Shown piece by piece: positions 18,781-20,390 of a stretch of DNA of 64,000 bases. Under the pieces are notes generated by a model. It did no database searches, was not told the origin of the DNA, and was given only the letters and a program-made list of their open reading frames with translations. The stretch is from positions 160,456,001 to 160,520,000 of the forward strand of contig OZ024743.1 of assembly GCA_964016885.1 (NCBI GenBank). The letters are read 5' to 3'. This stretch comes from Eledone cirrhosa (lineage: Eukaryota). The first letter of the stretch is position 1. Every line of letters starts with the position of its first letter. The position numbers and the translations under genes are program-made.

Positions 18781-18889
18781 ATACTTACATTTAAGTAAGT
18801 GCCGTACTAAGAGTGAGAAATAAAATTTCGTTTTCATTTTATTACAACTTATCGTTTTCGGTGCGCCTGGCCGACTGAACTCACTCGAT

Positions 18890-18897
18890 ATGCAAAT
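18890..18897 (+). promoter_or_regulatory. Octamer motif ATGCAAAT, present in all three array units
   Basis: Exact consensus ~75 nt upstream of the HHR. Function is inferred only. Confidence 0.35.
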
Positions 18898-18971
18898 TAG
18901 GCTGCTCAGCCGTTAATTTTCATAAGGAAAGTATATACTTTCTAACGTTCAACCATCTGGCAGAAGGGTAT

Positions 18972-19014
18972 ACGATGCTGATGATAGCTAACAAGCTTGA
19001 AACTAGTACATCGT
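18972..19014 (+). ncRNA. Type I hammerhead ribozyme, intact core
   Basis: acgatg CUGAUGA u agc uaacaa gcu u GAAAC ua GUA^ catcgt. Confidence 0.9.
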
Positions 19015-19454
19015 TCCTGTGTCAGTGTTGAACAAAAAGGTGTCGTGGTTGCCTTAACACCGTACGGCATAAATTCAGGCTGTCAGTTTGTTTACAAACG
19101 GACAAAGCGGGCGTTATAATAAACGTCCGCTAAACTGATACGTACATATATGTATGTGTACCTGTATGTATATATATATATATATATATATATATATATA
19201 TATATATATATATATGCATGCTACTGTACGTCTGTATACATATATGTATGTACGTACACATACATACTTACATTTAAGTAAGTGCCGTACTAAGAGTGAG
19301 AAATGAAAGTTCGTTTTCATTTTATTACAACTTATCGTTTTCGGTGCCCCTGGCCGACTGAACTCACTCGATATGCAAATTAGGCTGCTCAGCCGTTAAT
19401 TTTCATACGGAAAGTATATACTTTCGAACGTTCAACCATCTGGCAGAAGGGTAT

Positions 19455-19497
19455 ACGGTGCTGATGATAGCTAACAAGCTTGAAACTAGTACATCGT
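19455..19497 (+). ncRNA. Type I hammerhead ribozyme, intact core
   Basis: Same as 18972, except a stem I A->G change that gives a tolerated G-U pair. Confidence 0.88.
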
Positions 19498-20029
19498 TCC
19501 TGTGTCAGTGTTGAACAAAAAGGTGTCGTGGTTGCCTTAACACCGTACGGCATAAATTCAGGGTGTCAGTTTGTTTACAAACGGACAAAGTGGGCGTTAT
19601 AATAAACGTCCGCTAAACTGATACGTACATATATGTATGTGTACCTGTATGTATATATGTATATATATATATATGTATATATATATATATATATATATAT
19701 ATATATATATATATATATATATATATATATATATATATATATATATATATATATATATATATATATATATATATATATATATATATATATGCATGCTACT
19801 GTACGTCTGTATACATATATGTATGTACGTATACATACATACTTACATTTAAGTAAGTGCCGTACTAAGAGTGAGAAATGAAATTTCGTTTTCATTTTAT
19901 TACAACTTATCGTTTTCGGTGCACCTGGCCGACTGAACTCACTCGATATGCAAATTAGGCTGCTCAGCCGTTAATTTTCATAAGGAAAGTATATACTTTC
20001 GAACGTTCAACCATCTGGCAGAAGGGTAT

Positions 20030-20072
20030 ACGATGCTGATGATAGCTAACAAGCTTGAAACTAGTACATCGT
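20030..20072 (+). ncRNA. Type I hammerhead ribozyme, intact core
   Basis: Identical to 18972-19014. Confidence 0.9.
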
Positions 20073-20390
20073 TCCTGTGTCAGTGTTGAACAAAAAGGTG
20101 ACGTGGTTGCCTTAACACCGTACGGCATAACTTCAGGCTGTTAATTTGTTTACAAACGGACAAAGCGGGCGTTATAATAAACGTCCGCTAAGCTGATACG
20201 TACATATATGTATGTGTACCTGTATGTATATATATATATATATATATATATATATATATATATATATATATGCATGCTACTGTACGTCTGTATACATATA
20301 TGTATGTACGTATACATACATACTTACTGGGTGTGGATGCATTCATGTATATGTGTGTGTCCGCATGTATCTGTGTGTTTCTAAATATAT

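What the first reader, a model, noticed from the sequence alone, without database searches (positions are those of the whole stretch)
18781..20327. Three-unit HHR array carrying an octamer motif and its own internal (TA)n
Each unit has an intact HHR and an exact ATGCAAAT ~75 nt upstream of it. Established: newt satellite 2, an HHR tandem repeat, is transcribed from snRNA-type promoter elements including an octamer. Inference: this family may carry its own snRNA-like promoter. Each unit also carries a length-variable (TA)n flanked by a short inverted repeat (gtacatatatgtatgt../..acatatatgtatgtac), so it may seed new target sites as it spreads.
Basis: partly seen in the sequence, partly recalled or inferred. 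Interest (0 to 1): 0.7.

Follow-up and report, generated by a model that had tools for sequence, protein, structure and literature searches.

The report
Hammerhead retrozyme array with internal microsatellite
Three head-to-tail copies of a roughly 490-base non-coding repeat each carry a complete hammerhead-ribozyme motif and a TA microsatellite; this is most likely an ordinary animal retrozyme (a self-cutting jumping RNA, likely moved by Penelope-like retrotransposons), and the octamer motif is likely a chance match rather than a promoter.

Summary
The anatomy is real. There are three units (483, 575, 481 nt, plus an 8-nt terminal repeat). Each has a type I hammerhead (HHR), an exact ATGCAAAT 74 nt upstream of helix I, and a variable (TA)n (46, 138, 44 nt) between near-complementary flanks. 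The HHR is a canonical metazoan type with a U·U-closed helix II and a palindromic minimal helix III, predicted to cut as a dimer. It shows six compensatory changes against a second HHR array in the window. The unit fits a non-LTR retrozyme. The snRNA-promoter reading gets no support. One octamer per unit has P≈0.02–0.04. Identity among three 97–98%-identical units is uninformative. Seven of its eight bases are paired in a predicted RNA hairpin. No PSE scores above chance against human H1/U6. Two other HHR arrays in the window lack even a one-mismatch octamer. The 'inverted repeat' is decayed purine-pyrimidine microsatellite, only modestly better than chance. The three tracts add little to a window already full of (TA)n. 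Both sister arrays have an end at their internal TA run, which suggests such runs serve to prime insertion. Genome-wide conservation and transcription start were untestable. Verdict: new member of a known kind.

The parts
18781..19263 (+). Retrozyme unit 1 (483 nt)
19264..19838 (+). Retrozyme unit 2 (575 nt; long TA tract)
19839..20319 (+). Retrozyme unit 3 (481 nt)
20320..20327 (+). 8-nt terminal redundancy, identical to 18781-18788; both array ends fall in the same register (about 3.5% by chance)
18965..19018 (+). Type I hammerhead, unit 1: helix I 6 bp + UAU bulge + distal stem; helix II 4 bp with U·U base and AACA loop; helix III 1-2 bp, palindromic; cleavage after 19008
19448..19501 (+). 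Type I hammerhead, unit 2 (one A-to-G change keeps helix I as G·U); cleavage after 19491
20023..20076 (+). Type I hammerhead, unit 3; cleavage after 20066
18890..18897 (+). Exact octamer ATGCAAAT; 5' arm of a predicted hairpin whose 3' arm (18914-18923) holds a one-mismatch reverse octamer
19373..19380 (+). Exact octamer, unit 2
19948..19955 (+). Exact octamer, unit 3
19139..19271 (.). Microsatellite domain of unit 1: degenerate alternating flanks (quoted arms at 19142-19157 and 19238-19253) around (TA)n 19169-19214; 94% R/Y alternation; folds as one long hairpin
19652..19789 (.). (TA)n tract of unit 2, 138 nt with two interruptions
20227..20270 (.). (TA)n tract of unit 3, 44 nt
18795..18800 (+). 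GTAAGT (5' splice-site consensus, recalled) 14 nt into each unit; also the 3' arm of a short hairpin; 25 such hexamers on the + strand of the window; no role shown
18384..18781 (-). Left neighbour: truncated copy of a different dispersed repeat (other copies at 40017-40300, 40445-40609, 40732-41112 at 96-98%; 13815-14188 at 76%), running from a TA run to the array; junction with 1-nt microhomology
20328..20984 (+). Right neighbour: 529-nt segment between two identical 64-nt repeats (20328-20391, 20921-20984), followed by TA-rich microsatellite; blunt junction to the array

Best explanation
The array is three tandem copies of a non-coding repeat, each with a complete type I hammerhead motif, and is likely a non-LTR retrozyme: it would be transcribed as a multimer, is predicted to cut itself through paired (dimeric) hammerheads into 480-575-nt monomers, and is likely copied back into TA-rich sites by a Penelope-like (PLE) reverse transcriptase/endonuclease acting in trans. 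Shown: tandem units, the HHR motif with compensatory stem changes against a sister array, a self-complementary helix III, a structured AT-rich unit, and a Neptune/Nematis-type PLE ORF and two further HHR arrays in the same 64 kb. Inferred from published families: transcription, dimeric cleavage, circularisation by a host ligase, and PLE mobilisation. The internal microsatellite is most likely former target-site DNA that was taken into the unit and now changes length by slippage; it may help priming on (TA)n targets. The octamer is most likely incidental, being one arm of an RNA hairpin. Transcription more likely comes from read-through or from a PLE-type core promoter near the unit boundary than from an snRNA-type promoter.
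For: HHR descriptor: 3 of 3 units, 0 hits in 10 shuffled windows. Against the HHR of the 310-bp array, 6 of 16 pairs change on both sides and 97.9% of cells pair, versus 33-49% for slid partners (only 3 distinct rows). The UAU bulge and AACA loop are kept. Helix III strands are self-complementary in both families. This matches 'canonical' metazoan type I HHRs (helix I 6 bp, II 4 bp, III 1-2 bp with a palindromic loop, active as dimers; PMC4209133) and the axolotl retrozyme HHR with U·U at the base of helix II (PMC7229834). GC is 35%; the 358-nt non-microsatellite body folds at z=-5.2. A PLE ORF (RVT_1 + GIY-YIG) lies at 44981-46969(-) with molluscan relatives and a C-x4-C-x2-C linker, the motif hypothesised to give microsatellite targeting (PMC8557442). 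The two other HHR arrays (32066-32655; 41549-43857) are homologous to each other (z=18.7), carry a short internal TA run, and have an end exactly at that run, merged with genomic (TA)n: 2 of the 3 3' ends examined; the third stops about 27 nt past the run at an AT overlap. For the octamer.
Against: No other copy of this family was found in the window or in reachable collections, so dispersal is not shown. Neither end of the focal array lies in its TA tract, and no target-site duplication is evident. The monomers (483, 575 nt) exceed the 150-450 bp range of PMC7229834, though they fall within the 51-972 bp range of the 2026 preprint. The focal unit shares only the HHR with the sister arrays (without the HHR, z=-1.0 and 1.1) and nothing with the PLE ORF copy, so the PLE partner is unidentified. 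In unit-2 context helix I pair probabilities are only 0.13-0.55 and helix III 0. 8 of 9 motif-bearing Xenopus dimers did not cleave in vitro. The octamer's C is the one unpaired base of the hairpin arm, so structure alone does not explain it.
Confidence: 0.72

Rival explanations
1. One reading: the unit carries its own snRNA-type promoter (octamer as distal element plus a PSE), like newt satellite 2.
For: Exact octamer in all units, P about 0.02-0.04 for one unit. The octamer's C is not explained by hairpin pairing. A weak PSE-like stretch lies 160 nt downstream at 19057 (9 of 15 H1 positions), a spacing like that of vertebrate snRNA promoters (recalled). Precedent in newt (PMC2220036).
Against: That PSE match is at chance (P=0.39 in the 130-200-nt window, 0.93 anywhere; U6 P=0.96-0.99). 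No SPH-like or 3'-box-like motif at one mismatch (consensus strings recalled). Invariance is uninformative. Sister arrays lack the octamer. The octamer distal element is not universal: the sea urchin U6 distal element is an E-box (figure legend). Seven other exact octamers lie elsewhere in the window, against a shuffled mean of 5.85.
Confidence: 0.08
2. The units are tandem pseudo-LTRs (pLTRs), i.e. 3'-terminal fragments of an autonomous PLE, with a PLE-type internal promoter at the unit boundary (TATA-like sequence from the microsatellite about 21-29 nt upstream, start near 18781/19264, a 5' splice site at +15), multiplied by end-to-end template jumps.
For: Both array ends share one register with an 8-nt redundancy (about 3.5% by chance), and that register is not the HHR cleavage site. 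TATA-like 8-mers lie at 19235-19243 and GTAAGT at +15. PLE pLTRs hold the start site, an intron and TATA/Inr-like motifs (PMC8557442; PMC3846280). Xenopus retrozymes derive from pLTRs (preprint). Units carry private changes (2, 5, 5).
Against: No coding sequence in or beside the array. The HHR is the canonical type, not the PLE min-HHR type (helix II 7-8 bp, helix I 4-5 bp). TATA-like matches are trivial in alternating AT-rich DNA, and GTAAGT occurs 25 times on the + strand; the 310-bp sister array has no GTRAGT. This reading shades into the best explanation, differing mainly in the promoter and the template.
Confidence: 0.13
3. A single old HHR-element insertion next to a microsatellite was triplicated at the DNA level (slippage or unequal exchange through the 8-nt repeat); the array is not itself a mobile multimer and may be silent.
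For: Exactly three units plus 8 nt, as duplication between short direct repeats would give. Single locus in the window. 2-3% divergence between units, against 0 differences among 6 full units compared in the 310-bp array.
Against: The 8-mer is part of a hairpin of the unit itself and belongs to neither flanking repeat. Both flanks of the TA tract are kept in every unit. Sister arrays show HHR multimers are common here.
Confidence: 0.07

Closest known systems
Metazoan non-LTR retrozymes (Cervera & de la Peña 2020, PMC7229834; Li et al. 2026, bioRxiv 10.64898/2026.07.22.740005), e.g. Mytilus 350-390-bp repeats
   Same: Short non-coding head-to-tail repeats, one type I HHR per unit, low GC, self-paired predicted monomer, PLEs in the same genome.
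   Different: The unit is longer (481-575 nt) because it holds a long, length-variable (TA)n domain; the word 'microsatellite' does not occur in PMC7229834. Expression and circularisation are not shown here.
Axolotl HHR_Amex1/HHR_Amex2 retrozymes and newt satellite 2
   Same: Minimal helix III with a palindromic tetraloop (as Amex1 and newt) and a U·U mismatch at the base of helix II (as Amex2); weak monomer and efficient dimer expected.
   Different: Sequence was not compared. The host is an invertebrate, probably a mollusc. Newt satellite 2 has an experimentally shown snRNA-type Pol II promoter (secondary citation); here no PSE is detectable and no start site is known.
Penelope-like element pLTRs (Neptune/Nematis type; PMC4209133, PMC8557442, PMC3846280)
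   Same: HHR in tandem terminal repeats, head-to-head arrangements, association with (TA)n, microhomology 5' junctions; a PLE ORF in the same window.
   Different: No RT-endonuclease ORF is attached; the HHR is canonical rather than min-HHR; no homology to the PLE copy in the window.
Schistosoma HHR satellite (Pol III internal promoter; cited in PMC2220036)
   Same: HHR tandem repeat proposed to carry its own promoter.
   Different: No A box, one 1-mismatch B box, four T4 runs on the sense strand and no tRNA similarity: Pol III transcription through the unit is unlikely.

Membership tests
Non-LTR retrozyme | Type I HHR in every unit of a tandem repeat (at least two consecutive units) | tested here: met
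   3 of 3 units; covariation; MFE about -13 kcal/mol for the 71-nt stretches, below the -5 cut-off of the preprint, though that fold is not the exact HHR topology
Non-LTR retrozyme | Unit of a few hundred bp | tested here: met
   481-575 nt; above 150-450 bp, within 51-972 bp
Non-LTR retrozyme | Low GC (<50%) and non-coding | tested here: met
   GC 35%; the only frame of 120 aa or more overlapping the array runs through the TA tract
Non-LTR retrozyme | Highly self-paired predicted monomer | tested here: met
   Monomer z=-11 including the TA tract; z=-5.2 for the body without it
Non-LTR retrozyme | No LTR, PBS or PPT | not tested
   No LTR layout is visible in the sequence; PBS and PPT were not searched for
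Non-LTR retrozyme | Large TSD when present | tested here: inconclusive
   No TSD from the flanks; the 8-nt terminal repeat is internal to the unit
Non-LTR retrozyme | Many dispersed loci in the genome | not testable with these tools
   No second locus in the window; the collections searched hold no animal genomes and gave nothing
Non-LTR retrozyme | Transcribed, self-cleaving, accumulates as linear and circular monomers | not testable with these tools
   Needs RNA data or an in vitro assay
snRNA-type promoter (newt satellite 2-like) | Octamer distal element present | tested here: met
   Exact match, but P=0.02-0.04 per unit
snRNA-type promoter (newt satellite 2-like) | Proximal sequence element downstream of the octamer | tested here: inconclusive
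   No match above chance to human H1 or U6 PSE (strings from PMC1790723); host PSE unknown, searches listed no mollusc PSE source
snRNA-type promoter (newt satellite 2-like) | Octamer conserved above flanks across copies or related families | tested here: inconclusive
   Three units are uninformative; absent from 2 of 2 other HHR arrays in the window, which are homologous to this unit only in the HHR
snRNA-type promoter (newt satellite 2-like) | Defined Pol II start site within the unit | not testable with these tools
   Needs CAGE or 5' RACE
PLE pseudo-LTR | Terminal repeat attached to an RT + GIY-YIG ORF | tested here: not met
   No such ORF adjoins; the nearest near-complete one is about 25 kb away and not homologous
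PLE pseudo-LTR | min-HHR architecture (helix II 7-8 bp, helix I 4-5 bp) | tested here: not met
   Helix I 6 bp, helix II 4 bp against the description in PMC4209133; some PLEs carry variants with a small palindromic helix III

The most novel reading that the evidence does not exclude
A mollusc retrozyme family that is transcriptionally self-sufficient through an Oct-dependent snRNA-type Pol II promoter, evolved independently of newt satellite 2, and that carries a built-in (UA)n tract which primes its insertion at (TA)n sites and leaves a new, expanding (TA)n landing pad in every copy: a self-reinforcing retrozyme-microsatellite cycle.
Probability: 0.06. Interest if true: 0.62.

Novelty: new member of a known kind. 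Interest (0 to 1): 0.24.

Why it matters
As it stands this is one more non-LTR retrozyme family, in a genome region full of PLE remnants and (TA)n. Searches listed no paper on cephalopod retrozymes. Two points are of modest value. How invertebrate retrozymes are transcribed is little addressed in the papers I searched: 'promoter' occurs only as the T7 promoter in PMC7229834 and not at all in PMC5680766. A true internal promoter would therefore fill a gap, and this unit offers a sharp test (one unpaired C that makes the octamer). Second, the internal TA runs of the three arrays, with sister-array ends falling in them, give a testable model of how retrozyme RNA is primed at (TA)n targets by a Neptune-type PLE enzyme.

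Tried and rejected
Rfam: nothing at gathering score. At E<=5 there were 68 matches, almost all microsatellite-driven miRNA families far below cut-off, rejected as low-complexity artefacts. Searches for outside copies all came back empty: a degenerate HHR pattern in bacterial/archaeal genome contigs gave 0; the PLE protein in the same collection gave 34 pattern matches and 0 confirmed; phages and plasmids gave no match. A PSE-like stretch at 19057 looked attractive (160 nt after the octamer) but is at chance. Pol III boxes and tRNA origin were rejected. An intron from 18795 to the AG at 18963, ending at the start of the extended helix I as in D. virilis Penelope, is possible but unsupported: the branch-point-like motif is in 1 of 3 units and the 310-bp array lacks GTRAGT. 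The 8-nt terminal repeat equals, by my recall, the first eight bases of U1 snRNA. I rejected it as a captured U1 start because the 50-65 nt upstream are microsatellite, not a PSE. The 8-nt repeat as a TSD was rejected because it belongs to neither flank. The inverted repeat as a dedicated terminal structure is only modestly above chance: 12 of 1000 shuffles reach 15 of 16, and 8 of 41 other TA loci reach 14 of 16, although those 8 have flanks that are themselves TA-rich, so that control is lenient. The primary newt promoter paper was not available. I read no supplementary files; those of PMC7229834 and of the 2026 preprint (closed) may list related families.

Full report
Setting. The window is animal repetitive DNA. 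It holds LINE-like, Helitron and Tc1-type fragments and a Penelope-like (PLE) ORF at 44981-46969(-) with RVT_1 and a weak GIY-YIG match. The named relatives of that ORF are oyster proteins and clam-symbiont bins. The host is probably a mollusc; it looks like octopus DNA to me from recalled repeats, which I did not test. Microsatellite is abundant: 69 pure (TA)>=10 tracts in 44 loci, and 9.3% of bases lie in purine/pyrimidine-alternating runs of 20 nt or more.

Observation. The array is three units of 483, 575 and 481 nt plus an 8-nt repeat of its first bases. The 388 nt before the TA tract align without gaps, with 13 variable sites and 8, 8 and 11 pairwise differences; private changes number 2, 5 and 5. 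Each unit has an exact octamer (18890, 19373, 19948) ending 74 nt before helix I, a hammerhead, and a TA tract of 46, 138 or 44 nt. The quoted arms are present in every unit and pair at 14 of 16 positions.

The ribozyme. A structural descriptor finds the motif in 3 of 3 units and gives no hit in 10 shuffled windows. Its parts are the CUGAUGA and GAAA boxes, a 6-bp helix I with a UAU bulge and a distal stem, a 4-bp helix II closed by U·U with an AACA loop, a 1-2-bp helix III with a palindromic loop, and a GUA triplet. Cleavage would follow 19008, 19491 and 20066, releasing 483- and 575-nt monomers. Rfam scores it only weakly. Against the hammerhead of a second array in the window, 6 of 16 pairs change on both sides while bulge, loop and core stay; 97.9% of cells pair, against 33-49% when partners are slid (three distinct rows only). 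Helix III is self-complementary in both families, the arrangement described for dimer-dependent metazoan hammerheads (PMC4209133, parts 1-2 of 4 read). The axolotl HHR_Amex2 has the same U·U, cleaves 22% in an hour as a monomer and much better as a dimer (PMC7229834, parts 2-4 of 6 read). Against activity: helix I has only 0.13-0.55 pair probability in the unit-2 context, and 8 of 9 motif-bearing Xenopus dimers did not cleave (bioRxiv 10.64898/2026.07.22.740005, parts 1-3 of 5 read).

Class. A tandem, AT-rich (35% GC), non-coding unit with a type I hammerhead and a self-paired body (z=-5.2 without the microsatellite) meets the sequence-level definition of a non-LTR retrozyme. These are transcribed as multimers, self-cleave, circularise, and are proposed to be mobilised by PLEs. 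The window has two more such arrays. One has a 310-bp unit at 41549-43857, about 4.7 copies on minus and 2.7 on plus, joined head to head, with 6 full units identical. The other has two 319-bp units at about 32066-32655 with a U3-A8 core variant. They are homologous to each other (z=18.7) but share only the hammerhead with the focal unit (z=-1.0 and 1.1 without it). The PLE ORF has the C-x4-C-x2-C linker of Neptune/Nematis, hypothesised to confer microsatellite targeting (PMC8557442, passages). It is a plausible kind of partner, not an identified one.

The octamer. One octamer in the 370-nt body arises in 1.9% of 20,000 dinucleotide shuffles, and the window background (7 outside the array) gives about 4.4%. 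The whole window has 10, against a shuffled mean of 5.85. That is mildly unusual for a motif chosen in advance and unremarkable for one noticed afterwards. Identity in all three units says nothing, because 292 of 381 8-mers are invariant. In the predicted RNA, 7 of its 8 bases pair at p 0.86-0.99 with 18916-18923, itself a one-mismatch reverse octamer; only the C is unpaired. So most of the motif is accounted for by a hairpin, and one base decides the matter. An snRNA promoter depends on the PSE (established; PMC1790723, passages). The best matches to human H1 and U6 PSEs are at chance, both anywhere in the body (P 0.93, 0.99) and 130-200 nt after the octamer (P 0.39, 0.96). PSEs diverge between lineages (recalled) and I found no mollusc PSE, so this test is weak. 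Neither sister array has an octamer within one mismatch. The octamer is not a universal distal element: sea urchin U6 uses an E-box (10.1101/2023.01.09.523328, one figure legend). The newt precedent of an snRNA-type Pol II promoter is confirmed second-hand (PMC2220036, passage). Its octamer I know only from recall; the paper was not held and searches gave no description. Pol III is unlikely: no A box, four T4 runs, no tRNA.

The microsatellite. The whole domain 19139-19271 is 94% R/Y-alternating, against 51% for the body, so it is a decayed microsatellite around a pure TA core. Such sequence is near self-complementary by nature. The best 16-nt inverted match (15 of 16) is reached by 12 of 1000 shuffles, and the same flanks share a 15-nt direct repeat (20 of 1000). 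Eight of 41 other TA loci reach 14 of 16, with flanks that are themselves TA-rich. There is thus a modest excess, compatible with an old duplication or with selection for a long hairpin, but no distinct terminal structure. The tract is truly internal, since both flanks recur in each unit. As a source of targets it is minor: 3 of 44 loci and 207 of 2886 pure-TA bases, none hit. The sister arrays are more telling. Both carry a short internal TA run. The left end of the 310-bp array and the right end of the 319-bp array stop exactly at that run and merge with genomic (TA)n; the right end of the 310-bp array stops about 27 nt past it at an AT overlap, like the 30-40-bp PLE tail. I infer that internal TA runs are target DNA taken into the unit and reused for priming. 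The focal array does not show this directly: neither end lies in its tract.

Ends. On the left the array abuts, with 1 nt of microhomology, a truncated dispersed repeat whose other copies continue with different sequence. On the right it abuts, bluntly, a segment between two identical 64-nt repeats followed by TA-rich microsatellite. Both ends fall in the same register with an 8-nt overlap (about 3.5% by chance), and that register is not the cleavage site. Pure rolling-circle copying from a circle would not predict this. It leaves room for a fixed start site at the unit boundary with end-to-end template jumps (PLE pLTR-like; TATA-like 8-mers 21-29 nt upstream, GTAAGT at +15), or for local DNA duplication. 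I cannot separate these with one locus.

Limits. No other copy was reachable; viral and metagenome contigs were closed, no animal genomes were offered, and I read no supplementary files. PMC3846280 and PMC5680766 were seen as passages only. Octamer conservation, start site, expression and cleavage are untested.

Verdict. The feature is real, and is a new member of a known kind: a non-LTR retrozyme array (confidence 0.72 with the octamer incidental). The snRNA-promoter reading is unsupported but not excluded (0.08). The internal microsatellite is a mild peculiarity, more likely used in priming or carried passively than an important source of targets. Interest 0.24.

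Noticed in passing
window 41549-43857: Second hammerhead array, 310-bp unit, about 4.7 copies on minus and 2.7 on plus joined head to head at 43016, both outer ends in (TA)n; 6 full units compared are identical, so very recent. Same U·U / AACA / palindromic helix III design as the focal hammerhead.
   Followed up: partly
window 32066-32655 (+): Third hammerhead array, two 319-bp units about 98% alike, homologous to the 310-bp family, but with a U3-A8 core covariant, a G-C-closed helix II, a long 5-bp helix III and a GUC triplet; a short inverted piece lies at its 5' end and its 3' end is in (TA)n. 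One lineage thus seems to hold both a dimer-type and a monomer-type hammerhead.
   Followed up: partly
window 30930-31040: Head-to-head pair of degenerate hammerhead-like motifs (cores at 30985 minus, 30989 plus), also with U at both sides of the helix II base, between microsatellites.
   Followed up: no
window 44981-46969 (-): 662-codon open PLE frame (RT + GIY-YIG, Neptune/Nematis-type linker), lacking its N-terminus and running into (TA)n; best relatives 61% identical, named ones from oysters and clam-symbiont bins (likely host contamination).
   Followed up: partly
window 11812-12216, 29087-29788, 48340-48756: Frames that look like GIY-YIG endonuclease ends of PLEs by eye; Pfam gave no match at E<=0.001.
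   Followed up: no
window 40017-41130 and 13815-14553: Copies of the repeat that flanks the focal array, arranged as tandem and inverted pieces between TA or other microsatellite runs (PLE-like layout); a non-coding family with a CTGATGA-like box but no complete hammerhead.
   Followed up: partly
window 20328-20984: 529-nt unique segment between two identical 64-nt repeats, with a TATA-like motif near 20499; possibly a solo LTR or a PLE-type insertion with a long duplication.
   Followed up: no
window 18318, 43880, 60382: The same short repeat start follows a TA run at three places, one just left of the focal array's neighbour and one right after the 310-bp array: nested insertion of different repeats at (TA)n.
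   Followed up: no
window 32841-36682 (-): Helitron Rep/helicase remnants (Helitron_like_N, Pif1_2B).
   Followed up: no
window 54175 and 41380 (+), 39602 (-): Hammerhead-core-like motifs resembling PLE minimal hammerheads, single copies beside TA runs; not passed by my descriptors.
   Followed up: no
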